Positions 14,838 to 31,397 of a DNA stretch of 64,000 bases are shown in pieces (within the stretch, counting starts at the first letter, position 1; each line of letters starts with the position of its first letter). This stretch comes from a virus. Below the pieces are notes generated by a model. It saw nothing but the letters and a program-made list of their open reading frames with translations, searched no databases and was not told where the DNA came from. The translations under genes were made by a program, and so were the position numbers. The DNA lies in the IMG/VR virus record IMGVR_UViG_3300018414_000007, positions 17,107 to 81,106 of that record; one strand, 5' to 3'.

Positions 14838-14909
14838 GGTCCTGTAGTTCAACGGATAGAACGGGAGATTTCTAATCTCTAGATAATGGTTCGATTCCAT
14901 TCAGGACTA
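14838..14909 (+). tRNA. tRNA-Arg(TCT)
   Basis: Canonical cloverleaf GGTCCTG-TA-GTTC AACGGATA GAAC-G-GGAGA TT TCT AA TCTCT-AGAT-AATGG TTCGATT CCATT-CAGGACT-A. Confidence 0.95.
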
Positions 14910-14930
14910 CAATTAATCAAATTAAATAAT

Positions 14931-15164
14931 ATAAAAATAGAATTAGAACAAACAACAAACAATACTGTACCAATTAAAATATCAGTTACAATAGAAACTC
15001 AAGAAGAATTTGATAGTATATCTAATTTTACAGGATGTGTTATTGTAAATGATTTAATAGATACTATTGAAAGACCTGCTGTAAAACAATTTTTATCAGT
15101 AAAGTCAAGAAAAACTATTATTGCAAACTTTTTACAAGGATTTTGGAAAAAACTAGTGTTATGA
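14931..15164 (+). CDS. Hypothetical protein, probable ATA start
   Basis: The tracked ATG (14886) lies in the tRNA T-arm. The in-frame ATA at 14931 follows the AATTAATCAA leader. Confidence 0.45.
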   Translation: MKIELEQTTNNTVPIKISVTIETQEEFDSISNFTGCVIVNDLIDTIERPAVKQFLSVKSRKTIIANFLQGFWKKLVL

Positions 15165-15998: not shown

Positions 15999-16376
15999 AT
16001 GAATGCAACAATAACAACTGGAATAATTTTATTAGCTACATTAATAGCTATTAATTTAACTTGTATAATAATCAATCATTTTGTAATTAAAGCGGAAATA
16101 AATGATATATTAGACAAGGATTTAAGAATAGATTTACTTCAATCTCTTCAACCTATTTATAAAATATTCTTTAAAAGGGTAATAATCTCAGCAAATACAG
16201 ATTATTTTAGTTGTAAAGAAGATTATATAAGATATTCAAGTTATTTAAATATTGAAGGATTGCAAGAAGATTTAAATAATTTTTATCATAAATCCAGAAG
16301 AAAAGAACATACAGATTATGAGTTATTTAATGAATTTAAAGAAAAGAAAGTTTTAGAAGTAGAAGAAATGTTTTGA
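15999..16376 (+). CDS. Membrane-anchored hypothetical protein
   Basis: N-terminal transmembrane segment. Confidence 0.6.
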   Translation: MNATITTGIILLATLIAINLTCIIINHFVIKAEINDILDKDLRIDLLQSLQPIYKIFFKRVIISANTDYFSCKEDYIRYSSYLNIEGLQEDLNNFYHKSRRKEHTDYELFNEFKEKKVLEVEEMF

Positions 16377-16403
16377 TTTTTCAATTATTTTATCGTATTT
16401 TTG
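16372..16403 (+). promoter_or_regulatory. Bacteroidota primary-sigma promoter
   Basis: TTTG-N20-TATTTTTG. Confidence 0.7.
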
Positions 16404-16423: not shown

Positions 16424-16852
16424 ATGTATGAAATTAAAGACTTTACTAATCTCTTTACCTCTACTAAGCTATCTGAACTATTAATATTAGCAATTCTAGT
16501 ATTTTTAGGTGTTGCTGCAAGAATTAGTATAGATATTGAGATTAGTAAAAAGTCTTTTAAACAGATTAAATTTTTTCCTAGATATTTCTTAGCATTAGTA
16601 TTATCTTATGTTATTGAATTATATTTAGTGGAACATGAAGATGCAAGAAAATATTACGCAGAAATTATAATATTATTTTGTATCTTTGTAAATGATCTTA
16701 TTAAGTTTGTACTTAATAACACTGGTAGAATATTTATTTATATTTTAAGTGCCTTTACTAAAGGTGTATTTGATTTAAAGAAGTTTCTTGCTAAATCTGA
16801 GAATAATGGAAACAAACCAATAAATAAAGAATTTGATAATAAAGAAGAATAA
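16424..16852 (+). CDS. Membrane protein (holin-like topology)
   Basis: 3-4 hydrophobic segments and a charged C-terminal tail. Confidence 0.6.
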   Translation: MYEIKDFTNLFTSTKLSELLILAILVFLGVAARISIDIEISKKSFKQIKFFPRYFLALVLSYVIELYLVEHEDARKYYAEIIILFCIFVNDLIKFVLNNTGRIFIYILSAFTKGVFDLKKFLAKSENNGNKPINKEFDNKEE

Positions 16853-18114: not shown

Positions 18115-18438
18115 ATGGAAAAAAATAATAACTCTATATTCTTCTTCTATCCAGATGCAGAAGAAGGTCAACCAAGAAAAGTAATTGCTGGAGTATTTAA
18201 CTCTAATACTAATACTCTTATAATTGCTAAATCAGAATGTTCTCCTAAAGACAACTTCTGTAAAGATAAAGGTAGGAAGATTGCATTAGGTAGAGCCTTA
18301 TGTAATAGAGAAATTAAAGTTAAAGAGTATAAAGGTAAACAATCTAAAACAAATAAAAATTTGTTACCAAGAATCTTTAACTTAGAATCTGCTGAAAAAC
18401 CACAACAAAAATTCATTCAAATAGCAAAATCACTTTAA
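18115..18438 (+). CDS. Hypothetical phage protein
   Basis: Contains a CSPKDNFCKDKGRKIALGRA motif of the type common in small phage proteins. Confidence 0.7.
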   Translation: MEKNNNSIFFFYPDAEEGQPRKVIAGVFNSNTNTLIIAKSECSPKDNFCKDKGRKIALGRALCNREIKVKEYKGKQSKTNKNLLPRIFNLESAEKPQQKFIQIAKSL

Positions 18439-18439
18439 C

Positions 18440-19159
18440 ATGGCTAGGCTACAAGATATAGAAAAAATAATAGATAACTACGAAGAGAAGTTAAGAAAAG
18501 AAAAGCCTTTAAAAGCGTATAGTCATAGTAACAATTCTCTTGAATTAGAATCTGTACCTTATAATAAAACAGATTTAAAAAGCTTTATCATAGACTTCTT
18601 TAAAGACAATCATGGATACAATCCTAAACCTTGTTTTGCTAGAACTATTCAAACTAGAGAAGGGAAAGAAGAAACAACTAGTAGAGGACAAAGAAGAACT
18701 GCTGGAGATATATTCAGGTTTGCATTAAGATATTATTCTGATGATATTACTTTATATGATGTTATGGAAATATTATATGATTTAGTACAAAATGAATATA
18801 AATTTCAGACTCCTAACAGTAATAGTGATTATGCTACTCTTTATATGAATATTTGTAGTACTATTTATAGAAGGGTATTTAATTTATCACCTGGTTATAA
18901 AGGAAAATATAAATTTGATTCTAGTAATCAATATTATACTGATACTAGCACTAGTTCTATTAGAAATGAATTTCATATATTTGGATCTGATTACACTTTA
19001 CTTTTTGATACTAAAGAAGGTAAGGAATTAGTTTCAAGTAAACGTAATGAAATTGTTATTCCTGCTAATATGACTAGTGAAGAGCTAGATAGGTTAGTTA
19101 TGGAAAAACTAAAAAAATTGAAATCTCCAATAAAATTGGATAAAGTAGGTTATTTCTAA
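18440..19159 (+). CDS. Hypothetical protein
   Basis: 239-aa ORF. Confidence 0.7.
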   Translation: MARLQDIEKIIDNYEEKLRKEKPLKAYSHSNNSLELESVPYNKTDLKSFIIDFFKDNHGYNPKPCFARTIQTREGKEETTSRGQRRTAGDIFRFALRYYSDDITLYDVMEILYDLVQNEYKFQTPNSNSDYATLYMNICSTIYRRVFNLSPGYKGKYKFDSSNQYYTDTSTSSIRNEFHIFGSDYTLLFDTKEGKELVSSKRNEIVIPANMTSEELDRLVMEKLKKLKSPIKLDKVGYF

Positions 19160-19160
19160 A

Positions 19161-19195
19161 CTATCTCCTCCAATAAAGCGTTAAAAAGGAGGTAG
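19161..19195 (+). promoter_or_regulatory. Hairpin sequestering the polA Shine-Dalgarno
   Basis: CTATCTCCT (19161-19169) pairs with AGGAGGTAG (19187-19195). Confidence 0.6.
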
Positions 19196-21085
19196 ATTAT
19201 AGAAAGTAAAATAAATTTTGTAGGTCCAGAGGATTTATACAAAGAGGAAGGTAATCAACTATATGATCTAAAATCTATAGAAGATTGCCTTTCTTGGTTA
19301 AAGACATTATCATCAGTATCTTTAGATACAGAAACAGAAGGATTTTTTAATTTTAAGAATAAAATTATAATGCTTCAGTTATCTGACGGTAAAGAAGTTT
19401 GGGTGATAGATGTAAGAGGAAAAGAATACTATAATAAGTTAAAACCTGTATTAGAAAGTATTTTAGTATTAGGTCAAAATTTAAAGTTTGATTACAAATT
19501 CTTAAAATTTGAAGGAATAGAACTAAATAATATATATGATACATTCTTAGCTGAATGTGCTTTAACTAACGGTCTTACTGAAAGGCAATTAGGATTAGGA
19601 GCTATTGCTAAGAAGTATTTAGATGTTAATTTAGATAAATCTGTTAGAAATCAATTTATAGGATTAGAAGGTAAACCCTTTACATTCAAACAAATTATAT
19701 ATGGTGCAGAAGATGTACTGTATTTACATAAAATAAGAGAATTACAATTACAGAAAGCAGCAGAGTTAGATCTAGTAGATTATATACTATTAGAATGTCA
19801 AGCTTGTCTTGCAATCAGTGATATTGAATATAATGGTCTTGGATTTAATCCTCAAGCTTGGTTAGATTTAGCTAAAAAGGTAAATAGTAATATACCTCAG
19901 CTAGAATTAGAATTAGATCAGTTTATATTATCTGAACCAAAGAAGTATTATAAGTTTATTAACCAAACTCCTCAATTAGATATATTTGGAGGTGAAAGTA
20001 GAAGAGTATTAGTTGAATGGAGTAGTCCTACACAAATGCTTAAGCTACTTAAAGTAGTCTTAAATGATCCAAATTTAGAAAAGACTGAGGAAAAAGAAAT
20101 TGCTAAATATCAATTTGATTATCCATTTATTAGTAAATTCATAGATTATAAGAAAGAAGCTAAACTTGCTTCTACTTATGGTGAAGATTTTATTAAGTAT
20201 GTTAATCCTGTTACAGGTAGAATCCATAGTGATTTTTGGCAGATTCTAGTTACTAGTAGAGTTAGTTCTAATAATCCTAATTTACAAAACCTTCCAGCTA
20301 AAAATGATTATTTAAATTGTTTTGTAGCAGATAAAGGTAAGAAAATAATAGGTATAGATTACAAAGGACAAGAAGCAAGAATAGCTGCTTGTTTTAGTAA
20401 AGAAGCTACTTGGTTAGATGCTATTAAAGATGATAAAGACTTACATGGTGAAGTTGCTAAGCTTATGTTTAATATTACAGATGCTGAAGTAAGAAATAAA
20501 CCAGATTTTCTTAGAGGTAAATCTTATAGAGATATAGCTAAGAATATTAACTTTATGGCTTTATTTGGTGGTACTAAATGGAAGTTAAGTAAAATGCTTT
20601 TGTGTAGCTTAGATGAAGCTCAGGATCTATTAGACAGATACTTTTCTGCAACTAAGAACTTACAAGTATATTTAAATAAATGTGCTTCTTATGGCCTTAA
20701 AAGAGGTTATATAAGAAGTGGTAAACCATATAGTGCTATTAGATGGTTTGAGAATTGGAAAGAAAATTTAGATATTTATAAAGACTCTAAAATTATTGGA
20801 GAAATTACAAGAAACTGTTTTAATAGTCCAATTCAATCTACTGCAGCTATTACTACTAAATTAGCATTAATTAAACTAAGAGATTATATAAAAGATAATT
20901 CTTTGTCTAACAAAGTAAAGATTATTCATGTAGTTCATGATGCAATATATACTGAAGTAGATGATGATATTTGTAATGAATTTGCAGAAATTCAATCAAA
21001 TATAATGAAAAAGGCTGGTAAAGTATTCATACAAGATTTAATTATGGATACAGATATAACCATAGATATATATTGGAAAAAATAA
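19196..21085 (+). CDS. polA: DNA polymerase family A with 3'-5' exonuclease; non-AUG (ATT/ATA) start
   Basis: The frame is open from 19196 and includes ExoI DTET (19325). ExoII GQNLKFD, ExoIII YGAEDV, SSNNPNLQN, motif A IDYKGQEARI, motif B RDIAKNINF, motif C VHDAI. Confidence 0.92.
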   Translation: MIESKINFVGPEDLYKEEGNQLYDLKSIEDCLSWLKTLSSVSLDTETEGFFNFKNKIIMLQLSDGKEVWVIDVRGKEYYNKLKPVLESILVLGQNLKFDYKFLKFEGIELNNIYDTFLAECALTNGLTERQLGLGAIAKKYLDVNLDKSVRNQFIGLEGKPFTFKQIIYGAEDVLYLHKIRELQLQKAAELDLVDYILLECQACLAISDIEYNGLGFNPQAWLDLAKKVNSNIPQLELELDQFILSEPKKYYKFINQTPQLDIFGGESRRVLVEWSSPTQMLKLLKVVLNDPNLEKTEEKEIAKYQFDYPFISKFIDYKKEAKLASTYGEDFIKYVNPVTGRIHSDFWQILVTSRVSSNNPNLQNLPAKNDYLNCFVADKGKKIIGIDYKGQEARIAACFSKEATWLDAIKDDKDLHGEVAKLMFNITDAEVRNKPDFLRGKSYRDIAKNINFMALFGGTKWKLSKMLLCSLDEAQDLLDRYFSATKNLQVYLNKCASYGLKRGYIRSGKPYSAIRWFENWKENLDIYKDSKIIGEITRNCFNSPIQSTAAITTKLALIKLRDYIKDNSLSNKVKIIHVVHDAIYTEVDDDICNEFAEIQSNIMKKAGKVFIQDLIMDTDITIDIYWKK

Positions 21086-21103: not shown

Positions 21104-22747
21104 ATGCAAATAAGAAATAAAAAAAGAAAGGCATTAGAAGCAGAAATACAAAGAGAAAAAGACCCCAACTTTAACCCTGTAGAACATATAGTAGTAAACT
21201 CATTAGAGTATATTTTTGGTAAAGATCCTTCTGAATGGGGGATTTTATGTAAACCAATTGAAACTGTAGTTTCATATATGTGGGAAGAAAAGAAAAGAAA
21301 GCCTTTACATAAAAGGTTAAAACCTAAAAAGAATTTTCCTACTAATAGTCCTTCTACTAGTTTTGAACCAGTAAGCGTAACTTTTAGTTCAGGAACATCT
21401 ACAATAATATCTTCAACACCTAGTTGGGAATTAACAGAATCTTCTGATCAAGAAGAATCAATTGTAGATATTGAATTTGATGGAGAAGAATCTACTTCTA
21501 TTACTGATCATGGTGTAATTACAGCTACTGATGCACAAAAATTTAATTACTATACTCATGATGCTAAGTTGTCAAATCTTAATCTTGGAGAATTACAAGA
21601 GTATATAAATATATTATATAAGTATATTAATAAAGCTAACCAAAGAATAGAGCATTATAGTAATATAATGTTAACTAGTCCTAATCCTGCAATTAATGAA
21701 TTAAGAAACAGTTCAATTTCAAATAGAGACGAACTTCTTAATAAATTAAATCTTATTAAAATCTATATAAGTAATTTTAAAGAAAGTGTTGTTAAACAAC
21801 CATTAGAAGAGATAAATAAAAAGGAATCTTTTAATGATAAGATTAAACAGGGATTTAGATCTTTTTATTCAGCTACACTTGGATATCCTACTGTTATAAA
21901 GGGTTATATAATCAATGATAAAATATTTACTAATAATAGTGAATTAGCTTTATATGCAAGTACTAATAAAATACTTTGGGATCTTACAAAAATGATTTTA
22001 AGGGTTTCAAGATTCAATTATGAAACAAATGAAATTGAAACTAAAACTAAAATTGTTTCATTTAAACCTTTAAGTAAAGTTAAAGAAAGTTTAATACTTT
22101 CAGTACTACCTTTATTAGTAGATTTTAAAATCTGTTCATTTAAAAATAGTAACAATTTCTTTAATGATAAGATAGATAGAGAAAAGTTTCTTTATACTAA
22201 AACTCCATTTTGGAAAGTTAAAACAGTTAAATCCTTAATTGGTAAAAACAGATTAAGTAATTCCGTAGTTTCTATTGAAAATCCAGATAAAGGAGATGAA
22301 ATTTACTTTTTATTAGGTGATTGTAAAGTAGAAAATAAAGAACTTTGTGGTTATAGTATACCAATGGATAAGACTATAACTATAAATTCTATAGTAAAAG
22401 TAAAGGATAGTAAAATATCTAAATATAATTTAAAACAAGTAACAAATACAGAGGCTGAAGTTATCTCTATTAAACCAAATTCTTCTAGTAAAAAGATATC
22501 TAAGAATTCTAATAATCATAGATTGGATATTATAACTATTAGAAATAGATTTAAAGAGATGAAAGTCTATGCACAAGATCTAAAATTTATTAAAAACAAA
22601 TCAATTAAAACAAATGACAGCAGTATTAAAAAAGAAAGTGGTAATAAAGAGCCTTACCACGGAATCTCCAAAGACTGGTTTGAAAGTACAATCCAAAATA
22701 TCTACCAAAGTGAGTACATCCAATACACATCCAGTCCAAACTTCTAA
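21104..22747 (+). CDS. Large hypothetical protein
   Basis: 547-aa ORF; its 3' end overlaps the next gene. Confidence 0.7.
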   Translation: MQIRNKKRKALEAEIQREKDPNFNPVEHIVVNSLEYIFGKDPSEWGILCKPIETVVSYMWEEKKRKPLHKRLKPKKNFPTNSPSTSFEPVSVTFSSGTSTIISSTPSWELTESSDQEESIVDIEFDGEESTSITDHGVITATDAQKFNYYTHDAKLSNLNLGELQEYINILYKYINKANQRIEHYSNIMLTSPNPAINELRNSSISNRDELLNKLNLIKIYISNFKESVVKQPLEEINKKESFNDKIKQGFRSFYSATLGYPTVIKGYIINDKIFTNNSELALYASTNKILWDLTKMILRVSRFNYETNEIETKTKIVSFKPLSKVKESLILSVLPLLVDFKICSFKNSNNFFNDKIDREKFLYTKTPFWKVKTVKSLIGKNRLSNSVVSIENPDKGDEIYFLLGDCKVENKELCGYSIPMDKTITINSIVKVKDSKISKYNLKQVTNTEAEVISIKPNSSSKKISKNSNNHRLDIITIRNRFKEMKVYAQDLKFIKNKSIKTNDSSIKKESGNKEPYHGISKDWFESTIQNIYQSEYIQYTSSPNF

Positions 22748-23558
22748 AATTCCTACTTATCGTCCACAAGTAAGAAGTAGACATCCTTCACATAATGGAT
22801 TAAGGACATTATTAGCTAAATTACCTTTTAAATCTTTAATTAGATTTGGAAGTACTACCGAAGTAAATGATGGTATAAAAAGAGTAGAACTTAATTCTCC
22901 TGAAGCTATTAGAAAAAGTAGTAATAAACTACTTATGAAACAAAGCTTCTCTGAAGGTAATGTTAAAACAGCAGATTGGACTAATCAAGTTGCTAATGTA
23001 CCTGCAATTACAGAAAACTGGAAATATAAGTGTGTAATCAAAAAGCATTTTGGTAGTAGAGGTGAAGGTAATACTTTAGTATCTACTCAAAAGGAGTTTG
23101 ATTTGTTTATGAAGGGTAAAAGTGCTTCTGAATATATATTTGAGAGATTCTATAATTATGATAGAGAATACAGACTTCATGTAAATGAAGATGGTTGTTA
23201 TTATACTTGTAGAAAAGCATTAAAATCAGATACTCCAGAAAGCTCTAAATGGTTTAAAAATGATAGTAATTGTGTTTGGTATTTAGAAACTAATCCAAGC
23301 TTTGATAAACCAGTAAATTGGGATAGTGTTGTTAGTCAGAGTGTTAAAGCTCTTAAAGCAGTAGGATTAGACTTTGGAGCAGTTGATTTGAGAATTCAAT
23401 CAGCTAAAGATTCAAAAGGTAGAGTTAGGGAAGATCCTGACTTTATTGTAATTGAAATTAATAGTGCTCCAAGTTTGAATGATAGTGAAAGTATTGTATT
23501 TGCTAAATACTTAGAAGTACTTCCTACCATGTTAAAGAAAAAGTTTTTAAAAAGTTAA
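22614..23558 (+). CDS. ATP-grasp peptide/amide ligase
   Basis: SNKLLMK, FGSRGEG, REYRLHV, LDFGAVD and IEINSAP motifs. Confidence 0.9.
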   Translation: MTAVLKKKVVIKSLTTESPKTGLKVQSKISTKVSTSNTHPVQTSKIPTYRPQVRSRHPSHNGLRTLLAKLPFKSLIRFGSTTEVNDGIKRVELNSPEAIRKSSNKLLMKQSFSEGNVKTADWTNQVANVPAITENWKYKCVIKKHFGSRGEGNTLVSTQKEFDLFMKGKSASEYIFERFYNYDREYRLHVNEDGCYYTCRKALKSDTPESSKWFKNDSNCVWYLETNPSFDKPVNWDSVVSQSVKALKAVGLDFGAVDLRIQSAKDSKGRVREDPDFIVIEINSAPSLNDSESIVFAKYLEVLPTMLKKKFLKS

Positions 23559-23570
23559 TATAAAAGAATA

Positions 23571-24383
23571 ATGAATAAACATAAAAATTTTAAAGTATTT
23601 GTAGTAGGATTTAATACTGGCTACGCTAGGTGGATACAAGGTGAACTTGCTAAAAATATGAAAGAGGCTGATGTTGTTCTGTTTACAGGGGGAGAAGATA
23701 TTTCTCCCTCTTTATACGGAGAAACAGCTGGAAGACATACATTTCCCTATGATAGACCAAATGGTCAATTACCTTTAAGAGATGAATTTGAGGTAAGGAA
23801 TTATAAAGAAGCGTTAGAGTTAGGTAAACCTATGTGGGGTACTTGTAGAGGTGCTCAATTGTTATGTGCTTTAGCTGGTGGTAAATTAGTACAGGATATG
23901 AGTCATCATAGTTCTCATAAATTGTATTTCTATGATAATGAGTATGAGTGTGTAAGTAATACTTTACATCACCAAATGCAATATCCTTACACTATGAAAG
24001 ATGGTGAAGACTATAAAATCTTAGCTCATGCTATAGGTCAGAGCCCTTACTTCTTAGATGGTAATGATAAACCTCTTATTATGCCTGAAACAGTGAAAAA
24101 ACAAGGATATGCTAAACCTCTTATTAAAGAACCAGAGTTTGTATATTATCCTAAAATTAAATCTTTAGGTATACAAGGACATCCTGAAATGATGTCTACT
24201 AATAGTGATATGGTTTTAGTATGTCATGCATTTTTAAATCTTTTGATAGAGGATAAGTTAAATGATGCTCTCCTTTTAAATATTCCTGTTAAATCTATTA
24301 TAAGTAGAGCTTGGGATTTTAATTTTACAAAAGAAGAAAATGCATTATTAAATCAAATTAAAGAAGTCCCTATCGAGGTATAA
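23571..24383 (+). CDS. Class I glutamine amidotransferase / peptidase C26
   Basis: FTGGEDISP, GTCRGAQLL (nucleophile Cys), NTLHHQ and GIQGHPE (His-Glu). Confidence 0.9.
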   Translation: MNKHKNFKVFVVGFNTGYARWIQGELAKNMKEADVVLFTGGEDISPSLYGETAGRHTFPYDRPNGQLPLRDEFEVRNYKEALELGKPMWGTCRGAQLLCALAGGKLVQDMSHHSSHKLYFYDNEYECVSNTLHHQMQYPYTMKDGEDYKILAHAIGQSPYFLDGNDKPLIMPETVKKQGYAKPLIKEPEFVYYPKIKSLGIQGHPEMMSTNSDMVLVCHAFLNLLIEDKLNDALLLNIPVKSIISRAWDFNFTKEENALLNQIKEVPIEV

Positions 24384-24384
24384 A

Positions 24385-25014
24385 ATGAAAGAAGTAACAA
24401 TAGATAATATATTAGAGATTTTAAAAGAAGATATAGCAGGTTTAACTGAAGATAATAGAGAATCTACTATAGAAAAAATACAGTCTTATTTAATTAAATT
24501 TAGTTTCTTAACAAAAATTCCAAATATATTATTTGTTTATGGAAGCTTAAGAAAAGGAGAATTTAATTTTAAAAAGATTCAAGAAACTTTTGGGGAAAAT
24601 AGTATAATACATCTTTATCCTACAAGAGCAGATTATATGACTCTTTATGATTTAGGTGATTATCCTGTAATGATGAAGGCTAAAGGAACTTATCATACAT
24701 TTGGTGAATTAGTTTACTGTACTGATGAAGTAGTTGAAGTTATTAAACAAATGGAGTTAGAAGCAGGTTATCTATATGATACTTGTAATATATGGATTGA
24801 AAATAATAATAATCCATCTACAAAATATAGATTAATAAGTGTTCCTACTTATGTAGCAGGACCTCGCCTTAAAGATAAAATTTTCTTAAATCCAAGTACA
24901 TATCCAAGAATTACTTGTGGAGACTGGAAAAAGTATTTAAAATCTGTAGAAATAGAAGATACAAGAACTGATTTAGAAAAATTGCAAGAATCTTATTTTG
25001 GTTATTGCTACTAA
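24385..25014 (+). CDS. Gamma-glutamylcyclotransferase (AIG2-like)
   Basis: LFVYGSLRKGEFN, LYDLGDYP, GELV, LEAGY and ITCGDW motifs. Confidence 0.88.
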   Translation: MKEVTIDNILEILKEDIAGLTEDNRESTIEKIQSYLIKFSFLTKIPNILFVYGSLRKGEFNFKKIQETFGENSIIHLYPTRADYMTLYDLGDYPVMMKAKGTYHTFGELVYCTDEVVEVIKQMELEAGYLYDTCNIWIENNNNPSTKYRLISVPTYVAGPRLKDKIFLNPSTYPRITCGDWKKYLKSVEIEDTRTDLEKLQESYFGYCY

Positions 25015-25029
25015 ATTAAATATATATAA

Positions 25030-25869
25030 ATGAAAATAAAAATTGATAATTGGAAAATAGGTTCTGATCCAGAAGTTTTCCTTCATAATAAAAGTACAAA
25101 AGAAGTAGTATCTGCAATTCCCTTTATTCCGGGAGATAAACATGATCCATACCAAATACCTACATTACCAGAGGGTCATATGATTCAAACTGATAATATA
25201 ATGGTAGAGTATTGTTTACCTCCTACAAGTGATTATAGGGCTTTAATTAAGTCTTTTAGAGACTGTATAGCATATACTAATAATACTATACCAAGTGAAT
25301 TAGAAGTGGTTGTTAAAGCTTCTGCAAATGTAAGTGAACAATACTTACAAGATGAACAAGCTAAAAGATTTGGATGTGATCCAGATTTTAATGCTTGGAC
25401 AGATGATTTAAACAATCCTCCTAATAGTGATACTAATCTTAGAACTTGTGGTGGTCATATCCATATTGGCTATGATAATCCAGACTATGAACTTTCAAAG
25501 AAATTAATTAAAGCGTTAGATATATTTTTAGGTGTTCCATCTATTCTTTTAGATCCTGATAAAGATAGAAAGAAAATGTATGGTAAAGCTGGTGCACATA
25601 GGTTAAAAACTTATGGTGTAGAATATAGAGGTTTATCTAATTTCTGGTTGGCAGAAGAAGAATTAACTCAGTTAGTATTTAATGGAGTTAGAATGGCCAT
25701 TGCTATGATTAATAGTTCTGAATCTTACTTAGATAAGATGAGTGATACATTACAGTTAAAGATTCAAACTTGTATTAATACAGGAGACGAAGAGTTAGCT
25801 CAACAACTTGTACATCAACTTAGTTTATCTAGTTTATTGGCTGGTTCTACTAAAGTATATATTGACTAA
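25030..25869 (+). CDS. phiEco32-like COOH-NH2 ligase (type 2)
   Basis: IGSDPEVF, DNIMVEY, FGCDPDFNAW, RTCGGHIHIG, YGKAG and GVEYRGLSNFW motifs. Confidence 0.9.
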   Translation: MKIKIDNWKIGSDPEVFLHNKSTKEVVSAIPFIPGDKHDPYQIPTLPEGHMIQTDNIMVEYCLPPTSDYRALIKSFRDCIAYTNNTIPSELEVVVKASANVSEQYLQDEQAKRFGCDPDFNAWTDDLNNPPNSDTNLRTCGGHIHIGYDNPDYELSKKLIKALDIFLGVPSILLDPDKDRKKMYGKAGAHRLKTYGVEYRGLSNFWLAEEELTQLVFNGVRMAIAMINSSESYLDKMSDTLQLKIQTCINTGDEELAQQLVHQLSLSSLLAGSTKVYID

Positions 25870-25880
25870 TTAAAGAAACT

Positions 25881-25951
25881 TAAGAGTAGTGATAGCCTTG
25901 AGTTCGCTTTAGTTACTAATTTATTGGTAGCCTCCGGCTATCCTACTTTTA
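25881..25951 (+). ncRNA. Structured element upstream of the GATase start
   Basis: TAAGAGTAG-T-GATAGCC/GGCTATC-CTACTTTTA closing stem; inner GTTACTAA/TTGGTAGC hairpin. Confidence 0.5.
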
Positions 25952-25968
25952 AATTAAATAAAACAAAT

Positions 25969-26000
25969 ATGTGTGGATTAATATTTTGATGTGTGGATTA
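25969..26000 (+). repeat. Duplicated GATase start ATGTGTGGATTA (MCGL) x2
   Basis: Exact 12-bp direct repeat at 25969 and 25989, giving mini-ORFs MCGLIF* and MCGLYSLSLY*. Confidence 0.85.
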
Positions 26001-26015
26001 TATTCACTATCTTTG
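25985..26015 (+). promoter_or_regulatory. Bacteroidota promoter for the HNH gene
   Basis: TTTG-N19-TATCTTTG, ending 5 nt before ATG 26021. Confidence 0.65.
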
Positions 26016-26020
26016 TATTA

Positions 26021-26551
26021 ATGAAAATATGTAAAAAATGTAATGTTGAAAAATCTCTAGGAGAGTTTCACAAAGATAAAAGAACTAAGGATGGATTATA
26101 TAAATGGTGTAAATCTTGTAAAAAAGAGTATGATTTAATATACAGAAAAACAGATAAAATTCAAAATTTATATAAGTCTAAAGAGTATAGAAATAGAAAA
26201 AAGGAATATAAAAAATGGAGAGATATGACTGATCCAAGAGAACAACTTTTAATATCTGCTAAAGCTAGGGCTAAAAAGTATAATATACCTTTTAATTTAA
26301 CTATAGATGATATAGAATTAAGAGCTTATTGCCCTTTATTGGAAATTAAATTAGAAAGAAAACAATATGGAAAGGTGGGTTCATTTAATCCAAATTCCCC
26401 TTCTTTAGATAGAATAATTCCTAGTTTAGGTTATGTAAAAGGAAATATAGAGGTAATTTCAATGAAAGCAAATATAATGAAAAATAACGCAAGTATAGAA
26501 GAATTAAAAACATTTGCGAATAATATATTAAGGTGGTATGATTATGATTAA
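26021..26551 (+). CDS. HNH-type homing endonuclease with N-terminal Zn finger
   Basis: CKKC...CKSC, then CPLL and SPSLDRIIPSLGYVKGNIEVISMKAN. Confidence 0.85.
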   Translation: MKICKKCNVEKSLGEFHKDKRTKDGLYKWCKSCKKEYDLIYRKTDKIQNLYKSKEYRNRKKEYKKWRDMTDPREQLLISAKARAKKYNIPFNLTIDDIELRAYCPLLEIKLERKQYGKVGSFNPNSPSLDRIIPSLGYVKGNIEVISMKANIMKNNASIEELKTFANNILRWYDYD

Positions 26552-28142
26552 AATAATATTAATATTAGCATTTATAAATTATTTGCTATACTTCCTTAAT
26601 GGAAGAAAAAAGACTAATTTAGCTCTTTGTGGCTTAATTGGTTACTCTGGACAAGAGAACTATAATATAGACAAAATAAGGTTTCTAATGCTATGGAATA
26701 GTGTAGAAAGAGGTAAAGATGCTACAGGCATATATACCCCCTCAACAGGACTTATAAAAGATAATGAACCTGCTGGTAAGTTTCTATTTCAAAGTCATTT
26801 TAAAAAATTAGTTGATGATAATCAATTAATAGCTCATGTAAGAGCTAAAACAATTGGAGCAAATTTAGTTAAAAACGCTCATCCATTTGATGAAGAGAAT
26901 ATTGTATTAGCTCATAATGGTACTTTAGTTGACTATGTAGCGTTAGCATCCAAATATGATATGAAAGCTCTTAATTGGGATGTAGATTCTCAAGTATTAT
27001 CTTTTGGTATTAATAGAGCATTTAATGCTGAAACTACTTTAGATAACTTAAATATTGAAACTTTAAGTGAATATAAAGGTGCTGCTGCTTTACTATTTTA
27101 TAGTAAAAACTTAGATATGATATTTGTATTTAAGGATAAAGAGAGACCTTTATTTTATGGGTATGATCTTGATGGAGGAATGTATATGTCTTCTATTGAA
27201 GAGTCATTAAAAGCTGCAGGATTATTTGAAATTAAAGCGTTTACTGATAATACTTTGTATGCTATTGATCATGGTGAAATTGTAAAGACTTGGGTTTATA
27301 AAACCTATGCTGAACTTAATAAAACAGCTTATGTTGGTAAAGTTCGAGGGAGGGAACCAGGTCAGAGATTCCCAAAGTTAAAAAAAGGGGAAAGAGGAAT
27401 AGACATCACAAATGGAACCACTAAAGCATATTGGTTCTTAGATATGTGGCTATATTCTAATACCCAAACATGGAATCATCAAAGAGGAATCTATGGTAAG
27501 TTTGCTGAAATGAAAACTGGAAGGTTTTATTTAGTAACTGGATTCTATGCTGAAGATATAATGTTTGTTCAGGTAAAAGATGAGAATGGAAATGATGGAA
27601 TGGCAGCCTTAAGTTCATTTGATATAGATAGGTGTATTCCTCAACCTGAACAGTTATTTAGAATAACGGCTCCCCTTGTTGCTAAAAAGACAAAACAAAA
27701 ACTTTGGGAAAAAGGACAAATAGTTGAATTGATGAGTTATGATATAACAGAAGGATCAGTTTCTTTCTGGTCTGATTCAGAAAATGCAGAATACGAAATT
27801 CCTATGAAGTGTTGTAAACCATTAACACCTCAAGAAGTTATAGATTTCTGCTTAGAAACAGAAGATCCTAAAGATAAAGGAACTAAAGAACCATTACTTA
27901 TTCAACCCGCTCCTGAACCATCACCTTTTATAGAAAATACACCTGAGCCTGAACCTTTAGGAGATTTCATATCAACTCCAGTATTCTTGGGAGCTTTGGA
28001 ATTAATTGAAAGTGGATTAGGTAAATTAGAAGAAAAGTATGATGAAAATGGAGATTTAACCCCAGAAATTAATGCTATACGTATGGACATCACAAATTGC
28101 AAAGATAAGACATATCTTGACAACTTACTGGTACATAATTAA
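26538..28142 (+). CDS. Class II (Ntn) glutamine amidotransferase; catalytic Cys at 26628
   Basis: CGLIGYSG, RGKDATG, AHVRAKT, NAHPF, HNGTL and VDSQ motifs. Confidence 0.88.
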   Translation: MIMIKIILILAFINYLLYFLNGRKKTNLALCGLIGYSGQENYNIDKIRFLMLWNSVERGKDATGIYTPSTGLIKDNEPAGKFLFQSHFKKLVDDNQLIAHVRAKTIGANLVKNAHPFDEENIVLAHNGTLVDYVALASKYDMKALNWDVDSQVLSFGINRAFNAETTLDNLNIETLSEYKGAAALLFYSKNLDMIFVFKDKERPLFYGYDLDGGMYMSSIEESLKAAGLFEIKAFTDNTLYAIDHGEIVKTWVYKTYAELNKTAYVGKVRGREPGQRFPKLKKGERGIDITNGTTKAYWFLDMWLYSNTQTWNHQRGIYGKFAEMKTGRFYLVTGFYAEDIMFVQVKDENGNDGMAALSSFDIDRCIPQPEQLFRITAPLVAKKTKQKLWEKGQIVELMSYDITEGSVSFWSDSENAEYEIPMKCCKPLTPQEVIDFCLETEDPKDKGTKEPLLIQPAPEPSPFIENTPEPEPLGDFISTPVFLGALELIESGLGKLEEKYDENGDLTPEINAIRMDITNCKDKTYLDNLLVHN

Positions 28143-28152
28143 AGAATATATA

Positions 28153-29805
28153 ATGTTAGAAGAGATAAAAACAAAAGAAGAATTAAAAAACAAAAAAGAT
28201 TTTCTTTTAAAGAACCCATTTCATCCTAATAAGTTTATATACGCCGAAGAAGGAGAATCTCCTAAAGAGATTGTAATAATTAATGGAAGAGGATATGATG
28301 TAGATAAAAGTAATTTATCAGAAGATTTTTACCATCCTGGGTATTTCTTTTTGGCTGGAACAGGAGCAATGCTTGCGTTTGTTACTGCTACTAAAGCTAG
28401 AAGAGTGTTTGATCCAGAAAACCCTGAAACCTGGTGTCAAATAGTTTCTGAGTACAAACCTTCTAAAGAAAGGTATAAGAACGTTGAAACATCTGATTAT
28501 GAAACTTATAATGCTTCTCTTAAAAAGATTATTTCACAAGCTTATGGTGAATTAAAACCAGTATCTAATACAGAAGAGGAGTTATTAAACTTAAGTTTTG
28601 TAAAAGGAACTGTTAATCCTGATTTTTGGTTTCCTTTACAAGAAAAACAACATTTAGACAAGATGTTACCTTATAAAAAGTTTGAAAATATATATCACAA
28701 GGTTGATATAAATGATCTTGAGCATCAAATGAGATCTCAAGGATACCCAGAAGAAGAAATAAAGAAAAGAATAACAGAAGCTTTACAAAAGAATATTTTG
28801 TATGGTGTTGACTCTTTAACTTACACAGCTTTTGAAGGAATAAGATTTACATTTGGTGTTGAAATTGAGACTTGTATTGGAAGACTTGATGATGATCAAA
28901 TTAAATTTTTAAATGTTAAAGCAGTTCATGATGGTTCTCTAAGAGATAAAAATGGTAATACTCCTGGTGGAGAATATGTTACTGGTGTATTAACTGGAGA
29001 TGCTGGATTGACTCAATTAAGTGACTTATGTAGAGCTTTGTCTTCTAAATGTAGAGTAAATGCTCAGTGTGGAGTTCACGTTCATGCAGGAAGTTTAAAT
29101 TGGAATAGAGAAGATATTGTTTATTCTTATATTTTAGCAGAAATGTTAGAAGATGAGTTATTTATGATGCTTCCTAAATCAAGAAGAAGTAATACTTACT
29201 GTAGAAGATTAACTGAACTTACTTTAGATAAAGTTCCTTTGTTAAAAACAGCAGTTAGATCTGAATATAATATTCTTATAGATACAATCTATAATGATAT
29301 TTTGAAAGAAGTAACTCAAGTTAAAAATAAAGGTAAAATATATTCTGGAGTAGAAGAAGGAGTAGAAGAACCAATAATTGCTAGTGGGATTTATAACAGA
29401 GAAAAGCAACATCCAAATGGAGCTAAATGTGGTTATGATAAATCTGCACAAAGATATTGTTGGTTAAACTATGTTACTCTTATGTATAATACTAAAGGGG
29501 GTAAAAATAGTAACACTTTAGAGATTAGAAGTCATAGTGCTACAATGAATTTCAAAAAGATAAAGAATTGGATTAAGATTTTCTTTGCTTTTTGTAAGTA
29601 TGTAGAAACTAGTAAATCTAAGATTAGAAAAGGAAATGTAACTCTTGCTCATGTAATTAAAAAGGCATATCCTAAAACTGGAGATAAACTTCTTAAGTAT
29701 ATTGAAGAAAGAAAACAAGTGTTTAATTCTCATGATGAGTCTGTAGATTATGTAGAAATCTCAGAAGAAAGAAAGACTATAAAGGAGATAGTAGCAGCAG
29801 AATAA
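28153..29805 (+). CDS. Putative amidoligase (Amidoligase_2-type)
   Basis: TFGVEIET, HDGSL, GGEYVT, CGVHVH, RYCWLN and TLEIRSHSAT motifs; likely start MLEEIK at 28153. Confidence 0.88.
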   Translation: MLEEIKTKEELKNKKDFLLKNPFHPNKFIYAEEGESPKEIVIINGRGYDVDKSNLSEDFYHPGYFFLAGTGAMLAFVTATKARRVFDPENPETWCQIVSEYKPSKERYKNVETSDYETYNASLKKIISQAYGELKPVSNTEEELLNLSFVKGTVNPDFWFPLQEKQHLDKMLPYKKFENIYHKVDINDLEHQMRSQGYPEEEIKKRITEALQKNILYGVDSLTYTAFEGIRFTFGVEIETCIGRLDDDQIKFLNVKAVHDGSLRDKNGNTPGGEYVTGVLTGDAGLTQLSDLCRALSSKCRVNAQCGVHVHAGSLNWNREDIVYSYILAEMLEDELFMMLPKSRRSNTYCRRLTELTLDKVPLLKTAVRSEYNILIDTIYNDILKEVTQVKNKGKIYSGVEEGVEEPIIASGIYNREKQHPNGAKCGYDKSAQRYCWLNYVTLMYNTKGGKNSNTLEIRSHSATMNFKKIKNWIKIFFAFCKYVETSKSKIRKGNVTLAHVIKKAYPKTGDKLLKYIEERKQVFNSHDESVDYVEISEERKTIKEIVAAE

Positions 29806-31397
29806 TGTGTTTATTAATCGCAGTAAAGTCAGGAGTAGATAAGTCTAGTGACATCCTCTTTGACGCTATAAGAACAGGAGCTACTACTAATACAGATGGA
29901 ATTGGGTATGCATTTAAAAAAAGCAAACAAAATAAAATTTGGATTAGTAAAGGTTTTCAAGATGTAGATAAATTCATTACAACTCTACAAAAGAAGCACT
30001 TAAAACCAGAAGATGAACTTATTGTTCATTTAAGAATTGGTAATAAGGGTGCTAAAACTGTTGAAATGAATCATCCATTTGTTATATCTGATGATGCTGA
30101 TACAATTTTATCTAATGATGAATATGTACAGCTTCCAGTACTTGCACATAATGGTACTTTTCATAGTTACTCCATAACTAATAGTCAACTATCAGATACA
30201 TTCTATTTTACTAAAGACTTTATGTCTATTCCAGAAATACAAAGTCTTCTGAAAAGAGATACAGATACTTTTAAAAGAATCTTTACTTCTACACTGGGAA
30301 TTAATAGACTAGCTCTATTATTCCCAGATAATACTCCACTAATAACACTTGGTAACTTTATTGAATCAGAAGGATATTTATTTTCTAATGAATCATATAA
30401 GAAAAAGGTGTATAATGTTGGAGGATATGAAAGTTGGGATGATGAAAGGTATGCTACTAGTCGTGGTGGTGGACAAAATATATCTGATGGATGTTGGCAA
30501 AATGGAGTGTACCACAGTGGAAGTAAATACCCAGTAACACATTCTAGTATTCCAATTAATACTCCACATAAAGATACTAAATGGTTAGATAGAGATGATG
30601 AAGATGAAGATGTTGTTATTGCTAATAAGAAGTTTTGTAAAGTAGGAGAAAGAAAAAGAGATGTTAGGGGCTTTTTACAAGCTGATCCTAAGTTTGATAT
30701 TATTCCTCCAACAACTCCATTTTGGTGTATATTTAACAAAGCTACTAAACAATGGTATGATTCAACTGAAGGAAATATAGCTTATGTACCTCGTGCATAT
30801 CCTGTTAATCAGTTTGATAGAACATTCTTTACTCCAACAGTATTTAACTATACTCATTTCACCTATTATAGTCCAATAGGAGATTCAATAAAAGGGATAA
30901 ATCCTACAAAAAGATATCGTATTTATAACTTTGATTCTAGAGATCCTAGAGGAGCTACTTCAAAAGGTGTACATTTAGTTAATGAAATAAATTCTTATAA
31001 AAATGGTGAACCTCTTTATGGTACAACTGTTAGATCTTTGTGGTTAACTACTGAATCTTTAGTAGAACTATTTATACCTCAGTTAGAATCACCAAAACTA
31101 ACATTAGCTTATAGAACTCTCTATAGACTTATGCATAGATTTAGCACCCCTTCTAAGAATTTAATGAATGCTACTGAGAAAGCTATCAGAGGAGCTGAAA
31201 AGAATGGAAAAGAATCTAATATTAACTTTAAGAATCAACAAGGATTAGAGTTATTAGGATTGAAGTTATTCTATAATTATTTATTAATAGACCTTCTTCC
31301 TTTTGATCAAGCTAGATTGAAATTTCTTGAAGTTCAAGATTTAACTCCAGACAATACAGTTTCTTATAAAGAAGCTTTAGAAGCATTAAATAATTAA
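29805..31397 (+). CDS. Second class II (Ntn) glutamine amidotransferase
   Basis: N-terminal MCLLIA, NTDGIG, HLRIG, HPF, HNGT and SDT motifs. Confidence 0.88.
   Translation: MCLLIAVKSGVDKSSDILFDAIRTGATTNTDGIGYAFKKSKQNKIWISKGFQDVDKFITTLQKKHLKPEDELIVHLRIGNKGAKTVEMNHPFVISDDADTILSNDEYVQLPVLAHNGTFHSYSITNSQLSDTFYFTKDFMSIPEIQSLLKRDTDTFKRIFTSTLGINRLALLFPDNTPLITLGNFIESEGYLFSNESYKKKVYNVGGYESWDDERYATSRGGGQNISDGCWQNGVYHSGSKYPVTHSSIPINTPHKDTKWLDRDDEDEDVVIANKKFCKVGERKRDVRGFLQADPKFDIIPPTTPFWCIFNKATKQWYDSTEGNIAYVPRAYPVNQFDRTFFTPTVFNYTHFTYYSPIGDSIKGINPTKRYRIYNFDSRDPRGATSKGVHLVNEINSYKNGEPLYGTTVRSLWLTTESLVELFIPQLESPKLTLAYRTLYRLMHRFSTPSKNLMNATEKAIRGAEKNGKESNINFKNQQGLELLGLKLFYNYLLIDLLPFDQARLKFLEVQDLTPDNTVSYKEALEALNN

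What the first reader, a model, noticed from the sequence alone, without database searches (positions are those of the whole stretch)
19161..19372. DNA polymerase starts at AUU/AUA behind a hairpin-occluded perfect Shine-Dalgarno
Seen: the essential ExoI motif DTET (19325) lies upstream of the first ATG (19370). The frame is open back to an in-frame TAG (19193-95) and has no ATG/GTG/TTG, so initiation must use ATT (19196) or ATA (19199). It is preceded by AAAGGAGGT, which is paired in a 9-bp stem with CTATCTCCT just after the upstream stop. Known: AUU starts (infC, pcnB) are IF3-sensitive, and Bacteroidota ribosomes normally hide their anti-SD. Inference: a triple translational lock on PolA, opened by ribosomes terminating at 19159 or by a phage-altered ribosome.
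Basis: partly seen in the sequence, partly recalled or inferred. Interest (0 to 1): 0.75.

Follow-up and report, generated by a model that had tools for sequence, protein, structure and literature searches.

The report
Phage polymerase gene lacking normal start
A freshwater crAss-like phage's DNA polymerase gene has no ordinary start codon and must begin at a rare AUU or AUA codon right behind a conserved RNA hairpin, which probably ties its translation to that of the gene in front.

Summary
The polA frame is open from 19196. Its first ATG/GTG/TTG is at 19370, which lies downstream of the ExoI motif DTET (19325) and inside the Pfam exonuclease domain. A second assembly of the only public run gives the same letters at depth 18.3.

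All 137 related loci with DNA have a canonical start. In the two nearest (L013/L014, L003) a TTG aligns with the window's ATT. They share a 9-bp hairpin that ends at the start codon:
- 26 of 26 cells are paired, and 7 of 9 pairs changed on both sides.
- The loop keeps an invariant motif, A-TAAAGCG.
- The 5' arm abuts or overlaps the stop codon of a homologous upstream gene.

That upstream gene encodes a winged-helix-like protein. A complex model supports its binding to the polymerase (score 0.80, best control 0.00).

Best reading: translational coupling by hairpin unfolding onto a weak start.
- The non-AUG codon is seen only in this genome.
- In the relatives GGAGG sits in the loop, not the stem.
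- Nothing supports a phage-altered ribosome.

The scan has noted AUU-start-plus-hairpin cassettes before on other phage DNA (e1-123164, e1-121035).

The parts
18440..19159 (+). Upstream gene (239 aa) of unknown family. It has a winged-helix-like core (residues 43-152) and a C-terminal helix predicted to dock on the polymerase. It is in the same frame as polA.
   Evidence: ORF. Homologs directly upstream of polA in L013 (E 6e-23) and L003 (E 6e-14). No Pfam or PDB sequence hit. AF2 model pLDDT 87.3. VIA-align Z 4.4-6.3, with winged-helix DNA-binding domains (Fur, MarR, PadR and the like) making up most of the 50 rows listed and other folds among them. Complex model score 0.80 against best control 0.00.
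19157..19159 (+). TAA stop of the upstream gene, 1 nt before the 5' arm of the hairpin
19161..19169 (+). 5' arm of the hairpin (CTATCTCCT)
19170..19186 (+). 17-nt loop. AATAAAGCG at 19172-19180 holds the positions invariant in window, L013 and L003 (A, then TAAAGCG).
   Evidence: The only other exact AATAAAGCG in the window (12309) lies inside a small ORF without a hairpin.
19187..19195 (+). 3' arm of the hairpin (AGGAGGTAG). It overlaps the Shine-Dalgarno-like AAAGGAGGT (19185-19193) and the in-frame TAG (19193-19195).
19196..19198 (+). ATT, candidate start codon. It aligns with the TTG start of L013 and L003. The spacer after GGAGG is 3 nt.
19199..19201 (+). ATA, alternative candidate start codon. 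It aligns with the first Met of the closest protein relatives P0002, P0004 and P0005. The spacer after GGAGG is 6 nt.
19196..21085 (+). Family A DNA polymerase with 3'-5' exonuclease domain (629 codons from ATT)
   Evidence: Pfam PF01612 (residues 25-182) and PF00476 (276-622). phrog_17, E 1.2e-92.
19325..19336 (+). ExoI motif DTET, 15 codons upstream of the first ATG
19370..19372 (+). First canonical start in frame (an internal Met). Automatic gene calls begin here (P0001, 571 aa).

Best explanation
The polymerase gene of this crAss-like freshwater phage truly lacks ATG, GTG and TTG at its 5' end. It is translated from AUU (19196) or the adjacent AUA (19199). These codons sit directly 3' of a conserved 9-bp hairpin. 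The 3' arm of the hairpin holds the SD and the SD-to-start spacer. The 5' arm begins one base after the stop codon of the preceding gene.

The most likely mechanism is translational coupling by RNA unfolding or re-initiation. On its own the mRNA keeps the ribosome-binding site paired, and the start codon is weak, so free initiation is poor. A ribosome finishing the upstream gene covers and melts the 5' arm. This frees the SD and start for a waiting or scanning ribosome. PolA output is thereby tied to the output of the upstream winged-helix-like protein, which a structure model predicts to bind the polymerase through its C-terminal helix.

Shown: the missing canonical start, the covarying hairpin, the conserved stop-to-arm geometry and the gene adjacency. 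Inferred: the coupling itself, which of the two codons is used, and the protein-protein binding (model only).
For: Start:
- No in-frame ATG/GTG/TTG between TAG 19193 and ATG 19370.
- The exonuclease domain spans residues 25-182 of the long ORF.
- tblastn to crAss-like phages aligns from residue 20-23.
- Relatives at 59-73% identity carry the same N-terminus, FVGPEDLY and so on.
- Logan's own contig of the only run (31,219 nt, depth 18.3) shows 0 differences over 18800-19800.

Hairpin:
- z-scores are -3.35, -3.28 and -5.00 in window, L013 and L003.
- 26/26 cells are paired, 7/9 pairs changed on both sides, and slid controls give 42-65% paired.
- The + strand is more stable than the - strand in all three.
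- A covariance model finds the stem only in these leaders among 163 sources, about 0.99 Mb.

Geometry:
- The upstream stop lies at 19157-59 with the arm starting at 19161. In L013 the stop is at 2456-58 and the arm at 2459-66. In L003 the stop (2469-71) lies inside the arm.
- Blocking the 5' arm raises SD accessibility from 0.08 to 0.47-0.59.

Co-occurrence:
- The upstream-gene homolog abuts polA only in L003, L013 and L014 of 161 loci.
- L084 has the homolog 1.2 kb away and a related leader, but no stem.
- Window, L013 and L003 span one clade with 100/100 support.

Operon context: no terminator-like site, and no excess of promoter-like sites, in 18300-19500.

Partner: complex score 0.80 in three runs and best of 3 controls 0.00. 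The mark was reached by 58 of 80 solved complexes and 2 of 110 mismatched pairs. Runs agree in at least 81% of contacts and partner pLDDT is at least 76. The counts hold only roughly because my own alignments were used.

Literature: the RNA-unfolding and scanning models, with examples such as rpmI-rplT at +52 nt, are reviewed in PMC12548453 (passages read).
Against: - No expression data exist. No RNA run is listed, and only contigs, not reads, could be laid.
- The non-AUG codon is found in this genome alone among those with DNA.
- The closest protein relatives have Met at the ATA position, so a recent ATG-to-ATA change cannot be excluded.
- Simple coupling does not explain why seven loop bases are invariant.
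- Chemla et al. (10.1101/2020.02.10.941153, abstract read; also as summarised in PMC12548453) report that structure right after a stop codon lowers re-initiation.
- In L013 and L003 GGAGG is in the loop, so the SD itself is not hidden there.
- L003's upstream protein (173 aa) lacks the C-terminal helix that makes the whole predicted interface.
- If the host is a Bacteroidia, its ribosomes would be largely blind to the SD (PMC13000457, PMC13000453).
- Covariation rests on three sequences only.
Confidence: 0.5

Rival explanations
1. The hairpin is a protein-bound translational operator. Its invariant loop would be a binding site for the polymerase itself (autogenous repression, as T4/RB69 gp43 does on its own mRNA) or for the upstream winged-helix-like protein. 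Binding stabilises the closed hairpin and shuts off initiation when free protein accumulates. This could act together with coupling.
For: - The loop positions A-TAAAGCG are invariant in window, L013 and L003, while 7 of 9 stem pairs changed on both sides and the proteins are only about 60-65% identical.
- The motif with a hairpin occurs nowhere else in the window.
- The upstream protein's core resembles winged-helix nucleic-acid-binding domains (Z 4.4-6.3).
- Precedent: T4 gp43 binds an operator made of a hairpin plus sequence overlapping its RBS, with loop bases critical (PMC3014915, passages read).
Against: - No binding data.
- The polymerase here is family A, not a gp43 homolog.
- VIA Z values below 8 may reflect only a common arrangement.
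- The Atlas hint to the RegA family scored 0.76, which is chance level.
- Only three sequences define the invariant loop.
Confidence: 0.2
2. The missing start is an artefact or a lesion. The true sequence has ATG at 19199 (or 19196), or the assembled genome is a defective variant whose polA start codon mutated recently.
For: - The closest protein relatives (P0002, P0004, P0005) have their first Met aligned with ATA 19199. A single G-to-A change would produce the window's state.
- All 137 related loci keep a canonical start.
- Only one run holds the sequence. It may be the source sample, and only contigs could be laid.
Against: - An independent assembler gives the same letters at depth 18.3 with no differences.
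- The rest of the 81-kb record has long intact ORFs, including one of 5005 aa.
- The 58 codons upstream of ATG 19370 remain highly similar to P0002, so they are not decaying.
- The window's SD is longer (9 nt) and closer to the start than in L013 and L003, which fits compensation for a weaker codon.
- Five further members of the same 15-row clade have gene calls that lack the conserved N-terminus. P0003, sister to the window, starts at the conserved Leu of EDLY. P0010, P0042, P0049 and P0078 start at the same internal Met. This is expected if non-canonical starts recur, but it is unverified because their DNA could not be fetched.
Confidence: 0.12
3. Specialised-ribosome gate. In an SD-blind Bacteroidia host the long SD (AAAGGAGGU) makes polA translatable mainly by ribosomes whose anti-SD is free, such as those lacking bS21. 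The only known case of this is the host rpsU gene.
For: Host type:
- Gene leaders in the window are A-rich, with A at -3 (0.58) and -6 (0.67).
- 63 of 73 crude gene calls lack a strong SD.
- A Bacteroidota-type promoter pattern occurs 8 times against 2.7 expected; 1 of 100 shuffles reaches 8.
- polA's nearest named relatives are crAss-like phages.

SD:
- polA's SD is the only strong one before 31.6 kb.
- GGAGG is kept in L013 and L003 although it is not needed for the stem there.

Literature on Bacteroidia SD-blindness and the rpsU exception: PMC13000457 (abstract and passages), PMC13000453 (abstract).
Against: - The host is not identified.
- There is no S21 gene in the record.
- The window's SD complementarity is 9 nt, against the 13-bp helix described for rpsU.
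- Ten other genes of the phage (31.6-63.9 kb) also carry strong SDs, so SD use may be ordinary for this phage.
Confidence: 0.1
4. The protein starts at ATG 19370 and the phage makes an N-terminally truncated polymerase without ExoI.
For: It is the first canonical start and the automatic gene call (P0001, 571 aa).
Against: - It would remove ExoI and about 34 residues of the exonuclease domain.
- The upstream 58 codons are open. From base composition I estimate the chance of that at about 0.005.
- They are conserved at the protein level.
- There is no A-rich or SD-type leader before 19370 beyond coding sequence.
Confidence: 0.03

Closest known systems
AUU-initiated bacterial genes infC (IF3) and pcnB of E. 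coli
   Same: A gene with no ATG/GTG/TTG whose conserved N-terminus forces initiation at AUU (or AUA), behind a good SD. A weak codon keeps output low. According to 10.1101/063800 (passages read), infC and pcnB are the two confirmed E. coli cases, and AUA/AUU initiate at 1-2% of AUG.
   Different: In those genes the AUU is conserved across species and, for infC, is the sensor of an IF3 feedback loop (recalled). Here the codon is seen in one genome only, the relatives use TTG, and nothing links the product to initiation fidelity.
Translational coupling by RNA unfolding (phage f1 VII-IX, MS2 coat-lysis, E. coli rpmI-rplT)
   Same: The downstream RBS is locked in a stem whose other arm lies where ribosomes of the upstream cistron terminate. 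The stop-to-start spacing of +36 nt is compatible with a second ribosome loading while the first still holds the arm (PMC12548453).
   Different: It is untested here. The loop carries an invariant motif that coupling does not require. The start codon is non-canonical, and the host may not use SDs at all.
T4/RB69 gp43 autogenous translational operator
   Same: A phage DNA polymerase mRNA with a hairpin next to or overlapping its RBS and with conserved loop bases. In T4 a translational repressor gene (regA) also sits in the replication cluster (PMC3014915).
   Different: A family A rather than a family B polymerase. No sequence similarity of the operator. Binding has not been shown. The stem abuts the start codon instead of lying upstream of the SD.
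rpsU (bS21) extended-SD leader of Flavobacteriia
   Same: A rare strong SD in a genome context that otherwise relies on upstream adenines.
   Different: A 9-nt rather than a 13-bp complement. A phage gene rather than a ribosomal one. The SD is buried in a hairpin. The host is unproven.
Earlier notes of this scan: AUU start plus leader hairpin in phage genes (e1-123164, Klebsiella phage polymerase; e1-121035 and e1-146531, amidotransferases)
   Same: The same package: a rare AUU-type start, a strong RBS and a small conserved hairpin pressed against it. One case is also a DNA polymerase with ExoI upstream of the annotated start.
   Different: Other phage lineages and hosts. I did not re-test those notes, so they are leads and not support.

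Membership tests
Non-canonical (AUU/AUA) initiation, infC/pcnB type | No in-frame ATG/GTG/TTG upstream of residues that the protein family requires | tested here: met
   ExoI and part of PF01612 lie upstream of the first ATG
Non-canonical (AUU/AUA) initiation, infC/pcnB type | The non-canonical codon is conserved among relatives | tested here: not met
   137 of 137 loci have a canonical start. L013/L014 and L003 have TTG at the aligned position. DNA of the closest relatives (P0002-P0010) could not be fetched.
Non-canonical (AUU/AUA) initiation, infC/pcnB type | Protein N-terminus or ribosome position mapped to the codon | not testable with these tools
   No RNA run or raw reads
Translational coupling by RNA unfolding | Inhibitory secondary structure covering the downstream RBS | tested here: met
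   (SD unpaired 0.08); covariation
Translational coupling by RNA unfolding | The other arm lies within reach of ribosomes translating or terminating the upstream cistron | tested here: met
   The stop is 1 nt before, directly before, or inside the 5' arm in window, L013 and L003. The footprint size is recalled knowledge.
Translational coupling by RNA unfolding | Downstream expression depends on upstream translation | not testable with these tools
   Needs reporter constructs
T4 gp43-type autogenous operator | Hairpin with conserved loop next to the polymerase RBS | tested here: met
T4 gp43-type autogenous operator | The polymerase is a gp43 (family B) homolog | tested here: not met
   Pfam gives family A, PF00476
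T4 gp43-type autogenous operator | Specific binding of the polymerase to the leader RNA | not testable with these tools
   -
Bacteroidia rpsU-type specialised initiation | The host is a Bacteroidia with a sequestered anti-SD | tested here: inconclusive
   A-3/A-6 enrichment and few SDs. Bacteroidota-type promoter pattern 8 against 2.7 expected. crAss-like polA relatives. There is no direct host link.
Bacteroidia rpsU-type specialised initiation | Extended SD (about 13 bp with the 16S tail) | tested here: inconclusive
   9 contiguous complementary bases, judged against the canonical tail recalled from memory. The host 16S is unknown.
Winged-helix DNA/RNA-binding proteins (upstream gene product) | Winged-helix fold | tested here: inconclusive
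   VIA Z 4.4-6.3 over residues 43-152; winged-helix domains make up most of the 50 rows, with other folds among them. Foldseek found no match at E 0.001 or better, and there is no Pfam hit.

The most novel reading that the evidence does not exclude
A whole clade of environmental crAss-like phages controls its replicative polymerase through a dedicated leader RNA. This is a covarying hairpin with the invariant loop A-UAAAGCG, read by a trans-acting protein: the polymerase or its winged-helix partner encoded just upstream. Because initiation is driven by this operator, by coupling and by an SD used in an otherwise SD-blind Bacteroidota host, the start codon itself is free to drift among weak codons (UUG, AUU, AUA). 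That would explain why 6 of 15 clade members have gene calls lacking the conserved N-terminus.
Probability: 0.15. Interest if true: 0.8.

Novelty: new variant of a known kind. Interest (0 to 1): 0.55.

Why it matters
Practical point: automatic annotation truncates this polymerase by 58 residues and removes a catalytic proofreading motif. Probably it does the same to several relatives. Start-codon rules limited to ATG/GTG/TTG therefore mis-call an essential gene in crAss-like phages.

Biological points:
- The conserved leader is a compact, testable case of post-transcriptional control of a phage replicase outside the T4 paradigm.
- It links the polymerase to a previously unannotated winged-helix-like protein that a model predicts to be its partner.
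- If the host is a Bacteroidia, the leader offers a natural probe of when SD-blind ribosomes can use an SD.

Tried and rejected
- Stop-codon recoding or readthrough from the upstream in-frame ORF. Rejected: two different stops (TAA, TAG) intervene, the rest of the window reads well in table 11 including a 5005-aa ORF, and L013 and L003 have several stops in that frame.
- Frameshift from another frame. The only nearby ATG (19263) is followed by a stop after one codon.
- Group I intron. Rfam RF00028 scored 15.4 bits against a gathering score of 50, E 0.11, over 19157-19331. I treat this as chance, because 19196 onward encodes conserved polymerase residues.
- Intrinsic terminator. None in 18300-19500, and no T-run follows the stem.
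- Promoter inside the hairpin (the T4 lysozyme-type alternative-transcript model). There are 8 sigma-70-like sites against 7.7 expected. The Bacteroidota-type pattern has no match near polA; the nearest on the + strand is at 16372-16403. Phage-RNAP promoters are unknown, so this is not excluded.
- Second copy of the loop motif. AATAAAGCG at 12309 lies inside a small ORF without a hairpin.
- AGGAGGT is not enriched in the window: 7 against 5.3 expected.
- S21 gene in the record: none.
- RegA lead from the Atlas: score 0.76, below the chance range. Sequence searches of PDB gave nothing, or only a ribosome-recycling factor at E 0.099, which I take as noise.
- Expression: no RNA holder is listed.
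- Search for separately called N-terminal fragments of polA: no candidate.
- Word-index search for the upstream protein found only itself.
- The genome-contig scan returned only bacterial Pol I at 25-29% identity.
- megablast against phage records: no match.
- Alignments A5 and A6 put L003's 3' arm out of register and were not used.
- L090, L005 and L091 looked at first like ATA-for-ATG cases. They have a conserved N-terminal extension with GTG or ATG further upstream.
- Literature searches for prior description: 1 paper, unrelated; 64 papers with at least 4 of 5 terms, 15 listed, none on this by title; 3 papers, none on this by title. I found no description of this leader, but I did not read those papers in full, and supplements are closed.
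Full report
WHAT IS IN THE SEQUENCE. The window is 28.9% G+C. It is bases 17107-81106 of an 81,106-base virus record from a freshwater metagenome.
- Its polA-like protein finds crAss-like phages as the nearest named relatives, at 28-31% identity.
- The window carries a 5005-aa ORF on the minus strand.
These are TAA 19157-59, CTATCTCCT 19161-69, AAAGGAGGT 19185-93, in-frame TAG 19193-95, ATT 19196, ATA 19199, DTET at 19325 and the first in-frame ATG/GTG/TTG at 19370.
- Pfam places the 3'-5' exonuclease domain on residues 25-182 of the ORF read from 19196 (E 9.2e-23), and the polymerase domain on residues 276-622.
- A protein starting at 19370 would therefore lose ExoI and about 34 domain residues.

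IS IT AN ERROR? Only one public run holds the stretch. It may be the source sample, and it is kept as contigs. Logan's independent assembly gives a 31,219-nt contig at depth 18.3 with no difference over 18800-19800. That argues against an assembler slip. It cannot exclude a minority or majority variant, because raw reads were not available.

WHAT RELATIVES DO. I fetched 160 polA loci from IMG/VR and metagenomes.
- In 137 loci a tblastn match crosses the ExoI aspartate. All 137 have at least one ATG/GTG/TTG between the upstream in-frame stop and ExoI, mostly ATG 35-38 codons before it. The window is the only one without.
- Among 95 distinct leaders, 88 were scored as ATG starts. My script preferred ATG when one was present.
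- Only 4 of the 95 have an SD-like word: L013/L014, L003, L084 and L099.
- The two closest relatives with DNA are L013/L014 (65% identity over the N-terminal query) and L003 (61%). They share the window's architecture. The order is upstream gene stop, pyrimidine-rich arm, loop with A-TAAAGCG, purine-rich arm, in-frame stop, then TTG ATA. The TTG aligns with the window's ATT, and the ATA second codon is invariant.

THE HAIRPIN IS SELECTED.
- Each leader folds better than its shuffles. The z-scores are -3.35, -3.28 and -5.00, with 1, 0 and 0 of 200 shuffles as good.
- On the MAFFT alignment A2 the nine pairs are formed in 26 of 26 cells. Seven of nine pairs carry changes on both sides. Sliding the 3' partner by 1-3 columns gives 42-65% pairing and 1-3 such pairs.
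- G-U pairs occur, and the + strand is the more stable one in all three. This points to an RNA structure rather than a DNA operator.
- A covariance model built from A2 finds the stem only in these leaders, among the window and 162 loci, about 0.99 Mb. It picks up L084 at E 3e-4 as a homologous leader in which the stem is absent.
- Rfam has no family for it.
- Caveat: only three independent sequences exist.

WHAT THE HAIRPIN IS ATTACHED TO. The gene in front (18440-19159) has homologs directly in front of polA in L013 and L003 (E 6e-23 and 6e-14).
- Of 161 loci, only L003, L013 and L014 show this adjacency. L084 has the gene 1.2 kb away.
- In all three hairpin-bearing genomes the stop codon of that gene touches the 5' arm. 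It lies 1 nt before the arm in the window, directly before it in L013 and inside it in L003.
- A terminating ribosome protects roughly a dozen nucleotides 3' of the stop (recalled knowledge), so it would hold the arm open.
- Forbidding pairing of the arm raises the unpaired probability of the SD from 0.08 to 0.47-0.59.
- No terminator-like site, and no excess of promoter-like sites, separates the genes.
- This is the layout of translational coupling by RNA unfolding or scanning as reviewed in PMC12548453.

THE PARTNER PROTEIN. The family has 122 representatives at E 0.001 or better, with no Pfam or PDB sequence match.
- The AlphaFold2 model is confident (pLDDT 87.3, pTM 0.82).
- Foldseek finds nothing at E 0.001 or better.
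- VIA-align gives Z 4.4-6.3 over residues 43-152. Winged-helix domains make up most of the 50 rows, with other folds among them. These Z values are middling, so this is a lead and not an assignment.
- A complex model of this protein with the polymerase scored 0.80 in three runs against 0.00 for the best of three controls. The mark was reached by 58 of 80 solved complexes and 2 of 110 mismatched pairs. The runs agree in at least 81% of contacts and the partner's pLDDT is at least 76. The counts hold only roughly because I supplied my own alignments.
- The interface is the C-terminal helix (residues 205-233) against the exonuclease domain and a C-terminal segment of the polymerase.
- The model supports binding and does not show it. 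L003's shorter homolog lacks that helix.
- Coupled gene pairs are reported to often encode subunits of one complex (PMC10666635, title and abstract start seen in a listing).

WHICH CODON?
- ATT 19196 is the positional homolog of the TTG of L013 and L003. It is the first candidate a scanning ribosome would meet, and it is an accepted bacterial start.
- ATA 19199 aligns with the first Met of the window's closest protein relatives P0002, P0004 and P0005. It has the better spacing from GGAGG, 6 nt against 3.
- In E. coli both initiate at about 1-2% of AUG (10.1101/063800).
- I cannot decide between them. I would put ATT and ATA at roughly equal odds.

- The non-AUG codon is not conserved.
- In L013 and L003 GGAGG lies in the loop, 8-9 nt before TTG. 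The stem hides the spacer and the approach to the start codon rather than the SD.
- No S21 gene or other ribosome-modifying gene was found in the record.

HOST. The host is probably a Bacteroidota.
- Leaders are enriched in A at -3 and -6, and 63 of 73 crude gene calls lack a strong SD.
- A Bacteroidota-type promoter pattern occurs 8 times against 2.7 expected.
- This is not proven.
- If it holds, the recent F. johnsoniae work makes the retained GGAGG notable. According to it, ribosomes are blind to SDs except when bS21 is absent, and rpsU is the one SD-bearing gene (PMC13000457 abstract and passages; PMC13000453 abstract; PMC9976891 and PMC7797042 seen in the listing only).
- However, ten late-region genes of this phage also have strong SDs.

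A HINT OF RECURRENCE. In the polymerase tree the window, L013 and L003 span one clade of 15 rows with 100/100 support.
- Six of the 15 rows have gene calls that lack the conserved N-terminus. These are the window, its sister P0003 (called from the conserved Leu of EDLY), and P0010, P0042, P0049 and P0078 (all called from the same internal Met as the window).
- This is what gene callers restricted to ATG/GTG/TTG would produce if non-canonical starts recur in this clade.
- Introns or breaks would look the same.
- No separately called N-terminal fragments exist in the protein collection. That is weak evidence.

COMPARISON AND VERDICT. Each ingredient is known: AUU starts (infC, pcnB), RBS-sequestering hairpins opened by upstream translation, and a phage polymerase mRNA operator (T4 gp43; PMC3014915). 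New here are the following.
- Their combination on a family A polymerase of environmental crAss-like phages.
- The covarying stem with an invariant loop.
- The link to an unannotated, probably polymerase-binding, winged-helix-like protein.

Earlier notes of this scan describe the same kind of package on other phage DNA (e1-123164, e1-121035, e1-146531). I did not re-test them. I class the finding as a new variant of a known kind, with interest 0.55. The decisive data are the leaders of the closest relatives and simple reporter and toeprint experiments.

Noticed in passing
window 19125-19134 and 19168-19177: A 10-nt direct repeat (CTCCAATAAA). The first copy lies inside the end of the upstream ORF. 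The second spans the end of the 5' arm and the start of the loop. The first copy could offer an alternative partner for the SD. It is not present in L013 or L003.
   Followed up: partly
window 31645-63869: All 10 of 73 crude gene calls with a strong SD (GGAGG or AGGAG at -20..-4; background 2%) lie between 31.6 and 63.9 kb. There are none in the first 31 kb apart from polA. The other leaders are A-rich, with A at -3 and -6. This suggests a class of SD-bearing, possibly late, genes in a phage whose host probably ignores SDs.
   Followed up: partly
window 1547-1578(-), 8461-8492(-), 9000-9031(-), 16372-16403(+), 16677-16709(+), 25985-26015(+), 41321-41352(+), 61703-61735(+): A Bacteroidota-type promoter pattern (TTTG, 17-21 nt, TANNTTTG; consensus recalled) occurs 8 times against 2.7 expected. 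Several copies sit just upstream of genes.
   Followed up: no
window 22614-31397: Directly downstream of the polA neighbourhood lies a run of genes matching ATP-grasp/S6-glutaminyl-transferase-like, glutamine amidotransferase, COOH-NH2 ligase and amidoligase PHROGs. The scan has also noted this (e1-6129854).
   Followed up: no
L013 3784-4612: The polA ORF of L013 ends after 430 codons. It is followed by a 272-aa ORF, and the tblastn match to the window stops at residue 396. This looks like an insertion, an intron or a homing-endonuclease-type element, inside polA of that phage.
   Followed up: no
L013 and L014 (contig JGI24890J29729_1000009, 243,975 nt): Two identical copies of the polA locus lie 185,826 nt apart on one contig. 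This suggests a concatemeric assembly of a genome of about 93 kb.
   Followed up: no
L003 1498-2471: Two tandem paralogs of the upstream winged-helix-like gene precede polA in L003.
   Followed up: no
L082, L087, L012, L115, L134, L137 (15-25 nt before the polA ATG): Many more distant relatives have a strong, unrelated stem-loop (-15 to -22 kcal/mol) shortly before an ordinary ATG start of polA. A structured element in front of polA may therefore be a wider habit of these phages.
   Followed up: no
window 14838-14910: tRNA-Arg(TCT) gene. A 92-aa ORF call (14886..15164) overlaps it and is probably spurious.
   Followed up: no
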